Positions 33,875 through 48,730 of a DNA stretch of 54,497 nt are shown here, piece after piece (the first letter of the stretch is position 1; every line of letters starts with the position of its first letter). Location of the stretch: NCBI GenBank assembly GCA_963575745.1, contig CAUYUJ010000234.1, positions 62,001 through 116,497 of the forward strand. Reading direction: 5' to 3'. Origin of the DNA: Prorocentrum cordatum. Its lineage: Eukaryota. The notes below the pieces were generated by a model. It was not told the origin of the DNA. It did no database searches and saw only the letters and a program-made list of their open reading frames with translations. The translations under genes were made by a program, and so were the position numbers.

Positions 33875-36445
33875 ATGGCCCCCAAGAAGCCGGACCGCCG
33901 TCGCTCTTCCAAGCAGCCTCCGAGTTCCCGTCTTGCGGCTGAAGGATCTCTCCTCCAACGCAAGCAGGACTGCATCGCAGCGTTCAAGCAAGCGGGGTCT
34001 GACCGCCCCACGGCCGCATACAACGGGCTTGCCGAACTGAACGCGGACGAGCTCCAGGCAACGTATGACATGCACAAGTCCAACACGAAGAAGCTCGGCA
34101 GCGCCCTGATCCGCATGTGCGCCACCAACCAGATCAGCTACACGCTTGACCATCACCAGCGCAGCAAGCCTAAGCGCATTGGCGGTGACACATCACACCC
34201 ACCAGCGGGTTCCGCACGTCTTCAGACTGCGGACGCCCAATTCATCGCCTTGGACCCGGCCTTCTGGAAGGTCCCCGTCCTCGCCGAACCCACATCCCCC
34301 GACGACGGCAAGACGTACAAGCCCAGTATCAGCCTCCACGACTACGAGAGCGGTGAGCGGCTGCTCCAACACCACCTCGAGCAGGGCAAGCGAACCACGG
34401 GCCAGCTCGCGATTGCTGTCATGGGCCCAAAAAACGACAACTACGTCGGTACCGAGCTCGCCGTCCCCGTCCTGAAGCGTCACCCCAAGGCGCCCAAAGT
34501 GGTCCACACGCACGTCCCCGTGACCGTGTACCAGCTGGGCACCAAGGAGGTCGCCTGCACGGAAAAAGTAGCCGTCGCCACCATCGACCCTGCCGACCAC
34601 GTATGCTGGATTCGGGCGACCATACATGAAACCGAGGCCATCGCCGCAGTCCCCTCCATGCATCAGGCCTTCGAGGACCAGTTCTCGGGAGGTGCCCCCG
34701 TGAACGGTGGTCCACGCACCAAGGGCCCTTTTCGAGGGGACTCCGCTCCACAGGACAAGGCGCGCCAAAACCAAAAGCACAGGGAGTCCAAGAAAGACGC
34801 TCGCCGCCAGGAGCTCGATAGTCAGCTCCAGGACACCTTCAAGGCCCTCTTCCACGGCAACTTTAAAGCCGTCACCATCCTTGAACCCTGCAAAAGCCTA
34901 GGCAGGTTTGGATCGGGCGTCGGGAAGAGGTCCCTGGCCGCCACCTTCGGCGTCAGTCTCCAAGCGGTCGACAAGGTCTTGGCGGGATCAGGGCAACTCG
35001 GCGCTACCTACGACCTCAGCAACGTAGGTGCTGACGAGCCCACCGCTGACAAGTATCAGACCGTGTGGTTCCCTGAGGACCATCCCATCACGATGGCAGA
35101 TGCGTTCCAGAAGTCGGTGGAGTTCAAGGCACTGGGAGTCGTCAGGCACGGCAAGTCAGGCTTACTGGGGATCCGTGTTCCACGGGGGTCAGACGCCGCC
35201 AGGGCTGCGGCCGTCAACATCCGCGGCTGCGAGGCTTCCCTCGCCAAGACGCGCTACCGCATCACTGGCATTGCGGCACGCCACGCCACGCTGACCCAGC
35301 TCGCCAAGACTCTCACGGGCCCGTCCGTCAAATGGGACTGTGAGGTCTACCACACCGCCTGGGACCCAGCCACTGCGGCCCAGTTTGCCTTAGTGCGTGC
35401 CCATCGGCCCCCACTCACATACACGGTACAAGTTGCGGGGTGCCCCATCCCGTGGAGCATCACCGAGGCCCCGTTGGCTGAGGTGGTGCCAAAGCGGGAC
35501 AACGTCACCATCGTCACGCCTACCACCATTACGGAGCCTGTGACGCCGCCAGCTCGTGGTGGCGGCTTTAGCCCCGCCACCGGCACACTCCTCACCAAAG
35601 CGGCCCAGAGCCCCTATCTCCACGACCTCATGACTGCCACGCCCAAAGGCAAAGGCGTCGCACCGCTCCTGATCCCCAAGGAGGAGCCTTTAGCCAAGCG
35701 CCACCGATCCTCCAGTGGGAAACGTGACGTCCCGCCGCACGCAAGGTCACACTGCGCCCCAGGCCGCAGCTCCTCTGCACCCCCGCACGGCACGGACGGA
35801 GCCGCTGAACAAACAGCCGCCCCAGGAGCAGGTGGTCATGACTCTCGGCCTGGCACGGTGGCGGCAGAAGGCGGGGGCCACTCCGAAGGCGACGCTGCCA
35901 CAGCCGCCGAAGTATCAGGTGACGCCGAGGACGTCGAGATCCTCTCATCAGGCGATGAATACAGCGAGGCCTCCCACGAACTCAACACCTTCGGTGAGCG
36001 CTTCGCATCGGCCTCTCAACCGCCAGATGCTGCCACGACCCGCATCCAGCACATGGAACAACAGCACGAGCTGCTAGCCAACACGGTGGATAACATGCAG
36101 GTCCAGCTTGCGGGCGTTCTCTCCTCCCAGGCCACACTCACGGAGCACGTCTCGGGGTTGGAACGGGGGCTTGCCACCGTCGCCACCCAGCAACAGACGG
36201 CAACCGCCGAAGCTGCTGCACTGCGCGGCGACATCCATGCCCTCCTCGGGCACCTCACGGGGGGCAACATCCACCTGCCACAAGTGGCCACTCTGGCAAC
36301 TAAGAAGGAGGAAGCTGCAGCGGCCGCTGATCCCGTGGCTGTCTGCGGGTGGATCGACCAGCCAGGCCAGGTCACCCCAGGGACGGGGACCCCAGGGGCT
36401 GACAAAGGCAAAGACAAGGGTCGGGCCACCCAGGAACCCTATTGA
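33875..36445 (+). CDS. LINE-C ORF1 (856 aa; nucleic-acid-binding/gag-like with C-terminal coiled coil)
   Basis: Clean ATG-to-TGA ORF. RRM-like YRITGI..W..ALVRA segment and coiled coil RIQHMEQQHELLANTVDNMQVQL. Confidence 0.85.
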   Translation: MAPKKPDRRRSSKQPPSSRLAAEGSLLQRKQDCIAAFKQAGSDRPTAAYNGLAELNADELQATYDMHKSNTKKLGSALIRMCATNQISYTLDHHQRSKPKRIGGDTSHPPAGSARLQTADAQFIALDPAFWKVPVLAEPTSPDDGKTYKPSISLHDYESGERLLQHHLEQGKRTTGQLAIAVMGPKNDNYVGTELAVPVLKRHPKAPKVVHTHVPVTVYQLGTKEVACTEKVAVATIDPADHVCWIRATIHETEAIAAVPSMHQAFEDQFSGGAPVNGGPRTKGPFRGDSAPQDKARQNQKHRESKKDARRQELDSQLQDTFKALFHGNFKAVTILEPCKSLGRFGSGVGKRSLAATFGVSLQAVDKVLAGSGQLGATYDLSNVGADEPTADKYQTVWFPEDHPITMADAFQKSVEFKALGVVRHGKSGLLGIRVPRGSDAARAAAVNIRGCEASLAKTRYRITGIAARHATLTQLAKTLTGPSVKWDCEVYHTAWDPATAAQFALVRAHRPPLTYTVQVAGCPIPWSITEAPLAEVVPKRDNVTIVTPTTITEPVTPPARGGGFSPATGTLLTKAAQSPYLHDLMTATPKGKGVAPLLIPKEEPLAKRHRSSSGKRDVPPHARSHCAPGRSSSAPPHGTDGAAEQTAAPGAGGHDSRPGTVAAEGGGHSEGDAATAAEVSGDAEDVEILSSGDEYSEASHELNTFGERFASASQPPDAATTRIQHMEQQHELLANTVDNMQVQLAGVLSSQATLTEHVSGLERGLATVATQQQTATAEAAALRGDIHALLGHLTGGNIHLPQVATLATKKEEAAAAADPVAVCGWIDQPGQVTPGTGTPGADKGKDKGRATQEPY

Positions 36446-36514
36446 AGGTGCCTCAGAGAGCCCGCCTCAGCCCTCCGAGGAAGCGCCTCCAGAGGCATCT
36501 CTTCCCTCTTCGCG

Positions 36515-47900: not shown

Positions 47901-48730
47901 GCCCAGCCAGCGACAACCCTGCCCCGTCGGGCAACCTCTCGACGCTTACCGCGACTCCGTCTCCGAGAGCGACATCGCTCCCATATGTCGATATCGGTCA
48001 CCGCCAAGACGCCGACGACGACCAGGGTGACCCCCGCGGACTAAGTGGAATTGACGACGCACCGCCGACATCACACACTGCCGACCATGCTGCCCTATCG
48101 AGGCGCCAGCCTACTACGCGGCTGGCCTCCGAGCCCTCGTACGGCATCAGGATTGGCCCCACCGCGCAAACCATCCCGCCCCCCCACCAGCGGCAGCTCG
48201 CGGGGGCGGCTTCAGTCCCCCCGCAGGGCACTAAACCAGGCAGGCCCTCGCACCCCGCCCACGCTTCCACCGTTGCTGAGCGAGAGGACGCAGCTCTTCC
48301 GACCTCTCGGGGCTTGACCCTAGCGGCTCCAGCCCTGGGGCCGCGTGCTCCCCTTCAGTCACCCTTCAAGGGTGACGTACGTCAGCATACGGGGTGCCGC
48401 ACTACGCTAGTCCACCACCTGGCCAGGCGCACCGAGGATCACACCCCTGTCACGAGGCCCGCAGCCGCTGGCACTGAGCAACTTCCCCTCACTGACCGCG
48501 AAACCGAGCTGTCCCAGGCTATGGCCGCTCTCCAGCAGAGGCGCGCTGCTCTCGCCGCGGACCTTGCCGCCGCTCAAGCCCGTCAAGGCCCTCTACTCCA
48601 GCGCCTCCACAGCGCCAGGCGAGCCTTCGCCGAGCTGCTTACGCCCTCGCCTGATGATGCCGTGCCGTCACTCACCATCCAAGCTATGCTGTCATCGTTC
48701 CGCGGCGCTCCACCTGGTGCCCCGCGCTAA
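44920..48730 (+). CDS. LINE-C ORF2 C-terminal part: reverse transcriptase, CCHC knuckle, RNase H
   Basis: Part of ORF 44411..48730. RT: AGGLDGW, DQRLLS, DRQKCFD, GHLQGSSWS, FVDD. Knuckle: CRYC..EH..DC. RNase H: ATDGAC, QVAET, VDNQ, KIASH, NRQADALA. Confidence 0.95.

What the first reader, a model, noticed from the sequence alone, without database searches (positions are those of the whole stretch)
35562..48335. 13-nt motif GCGGCTTCAGCCC dispersed along the giant LINE in two reading frames
Seen: exact copies start at 37023, 37308, 41638, 42859, 44654 and 46907. One-mismatch copies start at 35562, 39567, 48206 and 48323. All are on the sense strand and lie mostly in linker regions of ORF1 and ORF2. 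Five read as GGFSP/SGSSP and five as AASA/AASV/AAPA. Both frames occur in confidently framed parts of pol (44654 and 46907). The core GGC-TTCA-GCC can form a small hairpin. Inference: the constraint is at nucleotide level, for example multivalent ORF1p or packaging sites, or DNA protein-binding sites. It also ties the whole 15 kb together as one element.
Basis: partly seen in the sequence, partly recalled or inferred. Interest (0 to 1): 0.75.

Follow-up and report, generated by a model that had tools for sequence, protein, structure and literature searches.

The report
Evenly spaced RNA hairpins inside LINE
The repeated 13-letter motif is the tip of a conserved RNA hairpin that occurs 15 times, about once per 1.1 kb, inside the protein-coding sequence of a 15 kb jumping gene, which looks like an array of docking sites for an RNA-binding protein.

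Summary
In detail: 6 exact and 4 one-mismatch copies, all on the + strand, against 0.22 expected.

The 13-mer is the apex of a 21-25 nt hairpin. It has a variable lower stem, an unpaired C, a 3-bp upper stem and a UYCA-type loop. In 10 of 10 copies the flanks outside the 13-mer pair for 4-6 bp with different sequences (48 of 50 cells paired; 58% in shuffles). A structural scan adds 5 members with compensated upper stems, giving 15.

- All 15 lie on the sense strand, in all three codon phases. None lies elsewhere in the window.
- A codon-shuffled null gives 0.04 such hairpins against 13 observed.
- Spacing is regular: 10 of 14 gaps are 1005-1346 nt (P about 5e-6).
- Copies 93-94% identical keep the hairpin, one through a T:A to C:G double change. 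A 90% copy has lost it. Relatives at 65-81% protein identity lack it.
- ORF1p has an RRM fold and a predicted trimeric coiled coil.

Best reading: a selected RNA hairpin array that serves as multivalent protein-docking sites. Binding and function are untested.

The parts
33723..49097 (+). One LINE-like retroelement unit of about 15.4 kb, from the 5' start AGTCTCGGCTCGAG... to the 3' end ...CTACTTGTCCG.
   Evidence: The same 3' end-(CT)n-5' start junction is seen in locus L125. The whole stretch is covered at high summed contig depth in runs X1 and X2. It lies between (CT)n arrays.
33875..36445 (+). ORF1 (856 aa from the first ATG). It has an N-terminal helical domain, alpha/beta domains including an RRM fold (aa ~455-540), a disordered stretch and a C-terminal long helix (aa 719-794).
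   Evidence: 76 relatives. AF2 model. Sub-model with pLDDT 91. All top 50 VIA rows are RRM domains, Z 6.4-8.1. Trimer prediction scores 0.76 against best control 0.08.
36446..48730 (+). ORF2 region of about 12.3 kb. In this copy two 1-nt frame breaks (near 40624 and 44921) split it into three frames. It holds an unknown N-terminal ~2,150 aa, an AP-type endonuclease, a reverse transcriptase (FVDD), a zinc-finger-like stretch, RNase H and a low-complexity C-terminus.
   Evidence: Pfam: Exo_endo_phos E 9.5e-5, RVT_1 E 0.028, RNase_H E 8.5e-7. Other copies carry an extra C behind 40624, or lack a base at 44921/44924, which joins the frames. P0003 reads straight through.
34209..34235 (+). Hairpin 1 (unpaired C at 34217). 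Upper stem GUC/GAC, loop UUCA, codon phase 1 (R-L-Q-T).
   Evidence: 28.7 bits, training row; dG -12.1; P 1.00 in context. It encodes ORF1 aa 111-120, which have pLDDT below 50. It is kept in L125 with U:A changed to U:G and a longer stem.
35555..35581 (+). Hairpin 2 (C at 35563). Loop UUUA in this copy. Phase 3 (G-G-F-S-P).
   Evidence: (32.9 bits). It lies in the disordered ORF1 segment aa 537-569. Contigs of other copies probably read TTCA here (table 5c).
36751..36777 (+). Hairpin 3 (C at 36759). Upper stem GUC/GGC. Phase 2. This is the weakest member.
   Evidence: (27.2 bits). Pair probability in the +-100 nt context is only 0.11-0.23.
37016..37042 (+). Hairpin 4 (C at 37024). Phase 3 (S-G-G-F-S-P).
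   Evidence: 35.0 bits; P 1.00.
37301..37327 (+). Hairpin 5 (C at 37309). Same 23 nt as hairpin 4. Phase 3.
   Evidence: 36.7 bits; P 0.99.
38446..38472 (+). Hairpin 6 (C at 38454). Upper stem swapped to GCC/GGC. Phase 2 (A-P-S-G-P-G).
   Evidence: 32.6 bits; P 1.00. Identical at all paired positions in the 93% copy L127.
39560..39586 (+). Hairpin 7 (C at 39568). Loop UCCA. Phase 3 (S-G-S-S-P).
   Evidence: 36.0 bits; dG -20.2; P 1.00.
40626..40652 (+). Hairpin 8 (C at 40634). Upper stem GCC/GGC, with one A.C mismatch in the lower stem. It lies directly after the C6/C7 run where this copy's frame breaks.
   Evidence: (32.0 bits). Extra C in other copies.
41631..41657 (+). Hairpin 9 (C at 41639). 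Phase 2 (A-A-S-A).
   Evidence: 35.1 bits; P 1.00.
42852..42878 (+). Hairpin 10 (C at 42860). Phase 2 (A-A-S-A).
   Evidence: (30.1 bits).
44647..44673 (+). Hairpin 11 (C at 44655). Phase 3 (G-G-F-S-P). It lies in the linker between the endonuclease and the RT.
   Evidence: (35.6 bits). L126 keeps it through a T:A to C:G double change (37 bits). L128 has lost it (14.3 bits). The peptide AGGFSPS is kept in P0003. The linkers of L001 and L002 lack it.
45871..45897 (+). Hairpin 12 (C at 45879). Loop UCCA. The pair below the unpaired C is swapped to C:G. Phase 2. It lies inside the RT region.
   Evidence: (29.0 bits). The homologous, gap-free sequence in L001 and L004 forms no hairpin.
46900..46926 (+). 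Hairpin 13 (C at 46908). Phase 2 (A-A-S-A). It lies in the linker before RNase H.
   Evidence: (31.9 bits). It is absent, and the linker is 4 aa shorter, in the ~77% relatives P0084 and P0092. About 15 nt are extra relative to L001.
48199..48225 (+). Hairpin 14 (C at 48207). Upper stem with G:U in this copy. Phase 2 (A-A-S-V).
   Evidence: (34.2 bits). P0086 (83%) and P0094 (59%) read AGAASAPPQG, which fits the consensus core.
48316..48342 (+). Hairpin 15 (C at 48324). Loop UCCA. Phase 2 (A-A-P-A).
   Evidence: 32.5 bits. Pair probability in the local context is only 0.04. The peptide LAAPALG is kept in P0086.
49098..49726 (+). (CT)n array at the 3' end of the element. A second (CT)n array at 33415-33720 abuts the 5' end.
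   Evidence: The same arrangement is seen in L125.

Best explanation
The 13-mer is the conserved apex of a structured RNA element. The hairpin is about 21-25 nt long. It has a lower stem of 5-8 bp of free sequence, one unpaired C, a 3-bp upper stem (G-N-C / G-N'-C) and a 4-nt loop U-Y-C-A.

Fifteen such hairpins are written into the sense strand of the element's two ORFs. They sit in protein linkers, in all three codon phases, about one per 1.0-1.35 kb.

Shown here:
- the array itself, its covariation and its restriction to the sense strand;
- its independence from the encoded protein;
- its even spacing;
- its gain within this family by substitutions or short insertions;
- its maintenance through a compensatory change in a paralogous lineage, and its decay in an older dead copy.

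Inferred: the hairpins are specific docking sites on the 15-kb LINE transcript for an RNA-binding protein. The most economical candidate is the element's own ORF1p, which has an RRM fold and a predicted trimeric coiled coil. Many evenly spaced sites would nucleate cooperative coating of the element's own RNA. That would give self-recognition (cis preference) and RNP assembly or protection of an unusually long template, in the manner of the dispersed packaging signals of ssRNA viruses.
For: - Enrichment: 10 sites against 0.22 expected. Codon-shuffled null: at most 3 motif copies and at most 1 structural hairpin, against 10 and 13 observed.
- Extended stem: the flank run is at least 4 bp in 10 of 10 sequence-selected copies. 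The background is 0.016 per position. Among 119 chance matches of the 15-mer in viral contigs, 11 reach that run.
- Covariation outside the 13-mer: 48 of 50 cells are paired (shuffles 57.6%; slid partners 40-57.5%). All 5 pairs change on both sides. 0 of 500 shuffles reach the observed covariation score.
- With all 15 rows: 90.7% of cells are paired against 61.4% in shuffles, and 8 of 10 pairs show double changes. Five of these rows were picked by a structural filter, so they lean towards the structure.
- The covariance model R1 finds 15 hits of 27-37 bits, all on the + strand inside 34209-48342. The next best hit in the window scores 15.9 bits.
- 8 paired cells are G:U, which pair only on the sense strand.
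- 13 of 15 hairpins form with probability at least 0.75 in a +-100 nt RNA context.
- Three codon phases are used: 1, 8 and 6 hairpins.
- Spacing: 10 of 14 gaps lie within 1005-1346 nt, P = 5e-6. With clusters merged, CV is 0.19, reached by 0 of 200,000 simulations.
- Paralogs from MAG G001: L126 carries a T:A to C:G double change as the only differences within the 27 nt. One of the two changes is non-synonymous (S to G). L127 is unchanged at all paired positions. L125 has U:A changed to U:G and a longer stem.
- Hairpin 12 arose within alignable, gap-free sequence.
- The two ORF1 hairpins encode segments with pLDDT below 50.
- ORF1p: RRM fold, top 50 of 50 rows, Z 6.4-8.1, rmsd 2.1-4.9 A for all but two rows. 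Coiled-coil trimer prediction scores 0.76 against best control 0.08. The runs agree in at least 84% of contacts, and partner pLDDT is at least 78. That mark was reached by 21 of 30 solved homomers and 0 of 23 single chains, calibrated on dimers. A coiled coil may pass by likeness to solved structures.
Against: - No binding, RNA-structure-probing or expression data exist for this element. No protein-RNA test could be run with these tools.
- The link to ORF1p is circumstantial. RRM-plus-coiled-coil ORF1 proteins are, from my recall, usually described as binding without sequence specificity.
- VIA Z scores of 6-8 are 'middling' by the tool's own note. Foldseek found no match at E <= 0.001.
- Relatives at 65-81% protein identity in RT (L001-L004) have no such hairpins. 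They also show no other obvious recurrent hairpin in the 1-4.4 kb available. The array is therefore not required for this kind of LINE in general.
- Only four paralogous DNA instances could be examined, and one of the four has lost the hairpin.
- Substitution density inside the hairpins of these mostly dead copies is not visibly lower than in their flanks.
- Two members (36759 and 48324) are predicted to be outcompeted by other folds in local context.
- The even spacing could partly reflect where linkers between protein domains happen to lie.
- The host genome was not available. Occurrence of the hairpin in other host sequences is excluded only for this window.
Confidence: 0.45

Rival explanations
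1. The hairpins are selected RNA structures, but the reader is a host factor. It could act in nuclear export or stabilisation of a long intronless transcript, in localisation, or in RNA modification. Alternatively they are a decoy against host silencing. The element's own ORF1p would not be involved.
For: All the evidence for a selected sense-strand RNA hairpin applies equally. The invariant unpaired C, the loop and two stem pairs fit recognition by any specific RNA-binding protein. Nothing here ties the hairpin to ORF1p in particular.
Against: A host-factor site should also occur in host transcripts or in other elements. The other roughly 39 kb of the window, which includes two further retroelement ORFs, has none. 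Close relatives of the LINE lack it, which is unexpected for a generic host pathway. There is no Rfam family match.
Confidence: 0.2
2. The hairpins act in translation. They would be pause sites placed in linkers of the giant polyprotein, slowing ribosomes so that the upstream domain can fold or bind the RNA in cis.
For: The hairpins sit in linkers or disordered segments. Their spacing of about 1.1 kb (~370 codons) is domain-sized. Their stabilities are -11 to -20 kcal/mol.
Against: A pause needs stability, not identity. Yet the unpaired C, G10:C19, C12:G17 and loop positions 1 and 4 are invariant in 15 of 15 hairpins, while the stems vary freely. That pattern points to specific recognition. 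From my recall, hairpins of 8-10 bp are weak obstacles for an elongating ribosome.
Confidence: 0.1
3. The array is a mutational by-product without function. The 12-13 nt core would be copied to new places by template switching of the RT, or by short-patch conversion between sites on the same RNA or cDNA. Palindromic flanks would arise by snap-back synthesis.
For: Hairpin 13 coincides with a 4-codon (12-nt) length difference relative to the ~77% relatives, which is the size of the core. About 15 nt are extra relative to L001. Two pairs of sites share 23-26 nt. Several contig joints end within about 10 nt of a hairpin, though these may be alignment artefacts of the shared motif.
Against: Snap-back would give perfect Watson-Crick palindromes of copied sequence. 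Here the stems contain 8 G:U pairs and a constant unpaired C. Hairpin 12 arose in gap-free homologous sequence by substitutions that changed amino acids. L126 differs by a compensatory pair. All ORFs stay open through 15 sites in three phases. The even spacing has no mutational rationale.
Confidence: 0.12
4. The signal is read on DNA. The sites would be oriented binding sites for a DNA-binding protein on the integrated copy, acting in internal promoter or enhancer function or in chromatin. Or they would be hairpins extruded from single-stranded cDNA.
For: An inverted-repeat core could also bind a dimeric DNA-binding protein. The tools cannot distinguish RNA from sense-strand ssDNA.
Against: 15 of 15 sites share one orientation. 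8 G:T pairs would be A.C mismatches on the other strand. What is conserved is pairing with free sequence. That is the signature of a folded single strand, not of a duplex recognition sequence. First-strand cDNA is the antisense strand.
Confidence: 0.07

Closest known systems
Dispersed packaging signals of ssRNA viruses (MS2, STNV, picornaviruses and others). PMC6281560 and PMC7793301 were seen as search listing and abstract only.
   Same: Many stem-loops are scattered through the genome, including coding regions. They share a short recognition motif in loop or bulge on stems of varying sequence. The proposed role is multivalent, cooperative binding of a multimerising protein to its own RNA.
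   Different: Here the carrier is a LINE, not a virus, and no capsid is known. The motif is far more uniform (11 of 27 positions invariant or nearly so). The sites are evenly spaced. Binding is not shown.
3'-UTR stem-loop of 'stringent' LINEs, recognised by their own RT. PMC5135761 abstract seen in the listing; examples such as eel UnaL2 are from my recall.
   Same: It is a cis-acting RNA hairpin by which LINE machinery recognises its own transcript.
   Different: That signal is a single hairpin next to the 3' tail. These are 15 internal hairpins within the ORFs. The nearest lies about 770 nt from the (CT)n tail. The element has a separate candidate 3' hairpin at about 49067-49087.
Iron-responsive element and phage operator hairpins (MS2, PP7). 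Architecture given from my recall.
   Same: The design principle is shared: a lower stem of free sequence, one unpaired nucleotide, a short upper stem and a conserved loop, read by one protein.
   Different: The IRE has a 5-bp upper stem and a CAGUGN hexaloop. MS2 and PP7 have a bulged A. Here there is an unpaired C, a 3-bp upper stem and a UYCA tetraloop. No Rfam family matches.
L1-type ORF1p (coiled-coil trimer plus RRM). From my recall.
   Same: ORF1 here has an RRM fold and a predicted parallel three-helix coiled coil.
   Different: The domain order differs, with the coiled coil at the C-terminus. The protein is 856 aa with extra domains. L1 ORF1p is, from my recall, not known to need specific hairpins.
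Short palindromic mobile insertions in coding regions, such as Rickettsia palindromic elements and organellar GC-rich palindromes. From my recall.
   Same: They are short hairpin-forming sequences found in frame inside ORFs.
   Different: Those are copies of one sequence, stems included. They occur in either orientation and in many genes. Here only the apex is shared, the stems differ and covary, the orientation is always sense, and none lies outside the element in the window.

Membership tests
Dispersed RNA packaging or assembly signals (virus type) | Multiple stem-loops share a loop or bulge motif on stems of differing sequence. | tested here: met
   15 hairpins. The unpaired C, G10:C19, C12:G17 and loop positions U13 and A16 are invariant. 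The stems covary.
Dispersed RNA packaging or assembly signals (virus type) | The sites are spread over the whole genomic RNA, including coding sequence. | tested here: met
   Sites run from 34217 to 48324 across both ORFs, in three codon phases.
Dispersed RNA packaging or assembly signals (virus type) | The sites are bound specifically by the element's own structural protein and are needed for RNP or particle assembly. | not testable with these tools
   The only evidence is indirect: an RRM fold and a predicted trimer in ORF1p.
Non-LTR retrotransposon (LINE) with AP endonuclease, RT and RNase H | An AP-type endonuclease, a reverse transcriptase and RNase H lie in this order in one long ORF. 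| tested here: met
   Exo_endo_phos E 9.5e-5 (below Pfam's cut-off). RVT_1 E 0.028 (below cut-off), with an FVDD motif. RNase_H E 8.5e-7 (above cut-off). The RT match by sequence alone is weak.
Non-LTR retrotransposon (LINE) with AP endonuclease, RT and RNase H | The element is multi-copy and dispersed, with a simple-repeat 3' tail and no LTRs. | tested here: met
   71,714 contig pieces were laid in run X1. Four further fragments occur in MAG G001. The tail is (CT)n. No long direct repeats were found at the ends. Target-site duplications were not examined.
Stringent-type LINE 3' recognition hairpin | A single stem-loop lies in the 3' UTR next to the tail. | tested here: not met
   All 15 hairpins are inside ORFs. 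None lies in the 3' UTR, 48731-49097.
Iron-responsive element, histone stem-loop or other curated RNA families | The sequence matches the family's covariance model. | tested here: not met
   Rfam 15 at E <= 1 over 33000-50000 gives only a chance minus-strand mir-598 row, 26.8 bits against a gathering score of 69.
Mobile palindromic mini-insertions | Copies share the whole sequence including stems, occur in both orientations, and occur outside one host element. | tested here: not met
   The stems differ. 15 of 15 are in sense orientation, and none is found elsewhere in the window. The host genome could not be searched.
-1 programmed ribosomal frameshift signal (considered for hairpin 8) | A slippery heptamer X XXY YYZ is followed, after a 5-9 nt spacer, by a structure. 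| tested here: not met
   The frame break lies in a C6/C7 homopolymer that abuts the hairpin, with no spacer and no in-frame heptamer. Most copies in X2, X11 and X3 simply carry one more C.

The most novel reading that the evidence does not exclude
A LINE has evolved a virus-like assembly code. An evenly spaced array of identical, ORF-embedded RNA hairpins serves as sequence-specific handles for its own trimeric RRM-containing ORF1p. This would give a physical basis for self-recognition (cis preference). It may also be what allows a 15-kb LINE transcript to be coated and copied. The hairpins would have been added one by one within this family, at the cost of amino-acid changes in linkers.
Probability: 0.35. 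Interest if true: 0.85.

Novelty: new variant of a known kind. Interest (0 to 1): 0.8.

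Why it matters
How LINE proteins pick out their own RNA (cis preference) is a long-standing question. Known specific signals are single 3'-end hairpins.

This element carries a clear and easily mutated candidate signal. It has 15 near-identical hairpins with free stems, so there are natural compensatory controls. It also encodes an RRM protein predicted to form trimers. That makes specific, multivalent self-recognition directly testable.

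The case also shows strong RNA-structure selection overlaid on coding sequence in all three frames. It illustrates how such sites are gained, both by in-situ substitution and by a roughly 12-15 nt insertion.

Seven full-text searches found no description of a dispersed, ORF-embedded hairpin array in a LINE. The library lacks most subscription journals, so this is not proof that it is absent from print.

Tried and rejected
- Whole-genome search: no genome is held for this window.
- The first alignment for the metagenome scan had no usable conserved stretch. I re-sent it with 3 sequences.
- The viral contigs protein scan found no relative.
- Sequencing runs: no RNA holder is listed, so expression stays open.
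- Read laying gave contigs only and printed 40 of 2,307 variant places. None of the 40 lies in a hairpin, against about 1 expected, so per-site conservation across the many copies could not be read.
- Joints near hairpins (44672, 42882, 41663, 37006-37008) have short sides of 19-31 nt. They may be misplacements of the shared motif. I did not use them as evidence.
- Relatives L001-L004 were screened for a different recurrent hairpin or k-mer. None was seen, apart from a tandem repeat in L001. Only 1-4.4 kb per locus was available.
- Self-comparison of the element with the rest of the window found no second copy.
- Protein-level short-motif explanation: rejected, because the core is read as GGFSP, AASA, RLQT, APSGPG and PSSGG in different phases.
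- Programmed frameshift at hairpin 8: rejected.
- Foldseek on the full ORF1 model gave no match at E <= 0.001.
- Atlas search on ORF2 aa ~680-955 gave only leads below 0.9.
- An m5C-methyltransferase (NSUN6-type) CUCCA loop site was considered from recall. Only 3 of 15 loops read UCCA, so I dropped it.

Full report
**1. The observation**

reproduces the ten sites exactly. Six are exact and four have one mismatch. All are on the + strand between 35562 and 48335. Dinucleotide shuffles expect 0.22, and 0 of 100 reach 10. No copy lies elsewhere in the 54.5-kb window. It is the most frequent 13-mer of the element.

It gives a mean of 0.14 exact copies (maximum 2) and 0.91 copies with at most 1 mismatch (maximum 3). 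The observed values are 6 and 10. The frame split, five GGFSP-type and five AASA-type, is as stated.

**2. What the motif really is**

Printing the flanks shows that the sequence outside the 13-mer is complementary across it in every copy. The run is 4-6 consecutive pairs in 10 of 10 copies. Such a run occurs at 1.6% of element positions. It occurs in 11 of 119 chance matches of the 15-mer in unrelated viral contigs, where the first pair is fixed by the pattern.

The flank sequences differ from copy to copy:
- TGGTG/CGCCA
- CAGTG/CGCTG
- CCCCA/TGGGG
- CCCCT/AGGGG
- CGCTG/CAGCG
- TCCT/AGGA
- GCGGGG/CCCCGC

On the ten rows, which were selected by sequence only, I counted the five pairs lying wholly outside the 13-mer. 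48 of 50 cells pair. Shuffles give 57.6% and slid partners give 40-57.5%. All five pairs show changes on both sides. 0 of 500 shuffles reach the observed covariation score.

The unit is therefore a hairpin with four parts: a lower stem of free sequence, one unpaired C, the upper stem GGC/GCC, and the loop UUCA (UCCA in three of the ten copies, UUUA in one).

A scan for this architecture with any upper stem adds five sense-strand members whose upper stem is itself compensated.

| Unpaired C | Upper stem or change |
|---|---|
| 34217 | GUC/GAC |
| 36759 | GUC/GGC |
| 38454 | GCC/GGC |
| 40634 | GCC/GGC, with one A.C mismatch in the lower stem |
| 45879 | the pair below the unpaired C is swapped to C:G |

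With all 15 rows, 90.7% of cells pair against 61.4% in shuffles. 8 of 10 pairs have double changes. These five rows were chosen by a structural filter and so lean towards the structure.

A covariance model built from the 15 rows scores them at 27-37 bits, which is by construction. Everything else in the window, on both strands and with filters off, scores at most 15.9 bits. No Rfam family matches.

**3. Properties of the array**

- Strand: all 15 hairpins are on the sense strand. Eight paired cells are G:U, which pair only on that strand.
- Codon phase: the unpaired C sits in codon position 1 (one hairpin), position 2 (eight) or position 3 (six). The core is translated as RLQT, AASA, APSGPG, PSSGG or GGFSP, so no peptide motif can explain it.
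- Folding: as RNA in a +-100 nt context, 13 of 15 hairpins form with probability at least 0.75. The exceptions are 36759 and 48324.
- Null model: codon shuffling yields 0.037 hairpins of this architecture (maximum 1) against 13 observed. The minus strand and the rest of the window have none.
- Spacing: the gaps are 1346, 1196, 265, 285, 1145, 1114, 1066, 1005, 1221, 1795, 1224, 1029, 1299 and 117 nt. Ten of the 14 fall within a 1.35-fold band (P = 5e-6 for the band-corrected statistic). After merging the two clusters, CV is 0.19, reached by 0 of 200,000 simulations.
- Protein context: the hairpins lie where the protein is unconstrained.
  - The two in ORF1 encode segments with pLDDT below 50 (aa 111-120 and 537-569).
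  - 44655, 46908, 48207 and 48324 lie in variable linkers or the low-complexity C-terminus.
  - 45879 lies in a variable loop of the RT region.

**4. The carrier**

The element spans about 33723-49097. ORF1 is 856 aa.

ORF2 is about 12.3 kb and begins after an in-frame TGA. Its Pfam matches are:
- an AP-type endonuclease, E 9.5e-5, below Pfam's cut-off;
- an RT, E 0.028, with an FVDD motif;
- RNase H, E 8.5e-7.

The tail is (CT)n.

In this copy ORF2 is broken by two 1-nt frame shifts. Contigs of other copies carry an extra C behind 40624, or lack a base at 44921/44924. Either change joins the frames. P0003 reads through the second break.

The family is very abundant. 71,714 contig pieces were laid in run X1, with likeness from 99% to below 90%. 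It occurs in several coded organisms and in aquatic metagenomes. Two close protein fragments are labelled 'Pyramimonas sp.' by EukProt, so the host is probably a pyramimonad-like green alga.

**5. Conservation and origin**

DNA of four further family fragments came from contaminating contigs of a metagenome-assembled genome (MAG G001).

| Locus | Identity to this copy | Hairpin site | R1 score | What changed |
|---|---|---|---|---|
| L126 | 93% | 44655 | 37 bits | Its only two differences within the 27 nt are T to C on the 5' arm and A to G on the 3' arm of one pair (T:A to C:G). The second change turns Ser into Gly. |
| L127 | 93% | 38454 | 31.1 bits | Unchanged at all paired positions. |
| L125 | 94% | 34217 | 29.8 bits | U:A became U:G, and the lower stem is longer. 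|
| L128 | 90% | 44655 | 14.3 bits | Loop mutation and two broken pairs, as expected for an old dead copy. |

The same model run over the 6.5-Mb MAG finds only those three hits above 25 bits. The next best is 19.9 bits, but only 150 of 2,819 candidates were scored.

Close protein fragments keep the hairpin-encoded peptides:
- P0003 (91%) has AGGFSPS, amid diverged flanks.
- P0008 (86%) has SARLQTAD.
- P0005 (93%) has RPQAPSGPG.
- P0086 (83%) and P0094 (59%) have AGAASAPPQG.

More distant relatives lack the hairpins. L001-L004 (57-81% protein identity to this copy's RT region) score at most 11.5 bits. ORF1 relatives at 45-58% identity lack GGFSP. P0084 and P0092 (~77%) lack AASA at 46908 and are 4 aa shorter there.

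At 45879, L001 and L004 align without gaps but form no hairpin. That hairpin was therefore made in place by substitutions that changed the peptide, from GPDQ or GPKQ to APAA. At 46908 about 15 nt are extra relative to L001. So the hairpins were gained stepwise inside this family.

**6. Mechanism**

What is shown: a sense-strand, structure-conserving and sequence-specific signal. The invariant positions are the unpaired C, G10:C19, C12:G17, and loop positions U1 and A4. It is overlaid on coding sequence, evenly spaced, gained and maintained in the active lineage, and decaying in a dead copy.

What I infer: it is read as RNA by a specific RNA-binding protein. The element supplies a candidate. 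ORF1p residues ~455-540 adopt an RRM fold. The sub-model has pLDDT 91. All 50 top VIA rows are RRM domains, with Z 6.4-8.1 and rmsd 2.1-4.9 A for all but two rows. Foldseek on the full model gave only weak rows for tandem RRMs, E 0.03-0.3.

The C-terminal helix (aa 720-794) is predicted to form a three-stranded coiled coil. The score is 0.76 against a best control of 0.08. The runs agree in at least 84% of contacts, and partner pLDDT is at least 78. The calibration was on dimers, and a coiled coil may pass by likeness to solved structures.

A multimeric RRM protein and about 15 evenly spaced identical sites would give multivalent, cooperative marking and coating of the element's own 15-kb RNA. 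This is the logic of the dispersed packaging signals of ssRNA viruses (PMC6281560, abstract in the listing).

I put about 0.85 on 'selected RNA hairpin array' and about 0.45 on the ORF1p or element-protein docking model. The rivals are a host reader, translational pausing, a mutational by-product and a DNA-level site. They are weighed in their own sections.

**7. Limits**

- No host genome, RNA data or binding test was available.
- Only four paralogous DNA instances could be examined.
- The read-laying output was truncated.
- The spacing statistic was chosen after seeing the data, although it is corrected for the choice of band.
- Statements about L1 ORF1p, the IRE, the MS2 and PP7 operators, stringent LINEs and palindromic insertions rest on my recall unless a paper identifier is given.

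Noticed in passing
33415-33720 and 49098-49726; L125:1-260: The element begins directly after one (CT)n array and ends in another. In L125 the family's 3' end, about 100 nt of (CT)n and the family's 5' start follow one another. New copies therefore seem to insert into (CT)n, either a microsatellite target or the tail of an earlier copy, which would give head-to-tail arrays.
   Followed up: partly
36443-36445: ORF1 ends in a TGA, and the 12-kb ORF2 continues in the same frame directly behind it. This could be stop-codon readthrough giving an ORF1-ORF2 fusion. Contigs of other copies vary or break at 36586-36592.
   Followed up: no
40625-40630 and about 44921-44924: This copy has two 1-nt frame breaks. 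One is a C6 run where many other copies have C7. The other is an extra base near 44921. In run X1 only about 13% of the summed depth has the extra C. In X2, X11 and X3 the share is 72-100%.
   Followed up: partly
38486-39310: The ORF2 N-terminal region, with '...VFWHGTRGDL...YVSVHPS...', gives weak Atlas leads to PARP-type, ART-type and Arr-type ADP-ribosyltransferases (0.79-0.80, below the 0.9 level). It has no Pfam hit. This may be an ADP-ribosyltransferase-like domain in a LINE.
   Followed up: partly
2-5800 and 28320-30086: The same window holds two other retroelement-like ORFs. One matches Exo_endo_phos (E 1.4e-5) and the other RVT_1 (E 6.3e-13). Neither carries the hairpin.
   Followed up: partly
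47676-47945: A 168-nt tandem duplication (83% identical arms) encodes the repeat '...EDDP(F/S)(G/S)FGGGLD(F/V)L(G/D)DGPAS...'. Some contigs of X1 skip one unit.
   Followed up: no
36882-37005: Contigs in X1, X2 and X3 lack about 125 nt just upstream of hairpin 4. Several other contig joints end within about 10 nt of a hairpin (44672, 42882, 41663). These are either real indels next to hairpins or misplacements caused by the shared motif.
   Followed up: no
about 49067-49087: A separate inverted repeat, GCGGAC...GTCCGC, lies just before the (CT)n tail. It is a candidate 3'-end recognition hairpin and is unlike the internal ones.
   Followed up: no
L124-L128 (handle G001): A MAG labelled Myxococcales holds at least four short contigs of this eukaryotic LINE family at 90-94% identity. 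This is contamination of the bin.
   Followed up: yes
31324-32817: Upstream of the element lie a dense run of simple repeats, (CCT)n, (TCC)n and (CGA)n, and a 22-nt tandem repeat of 10 copies at 31830-32052.
   Followed up: no
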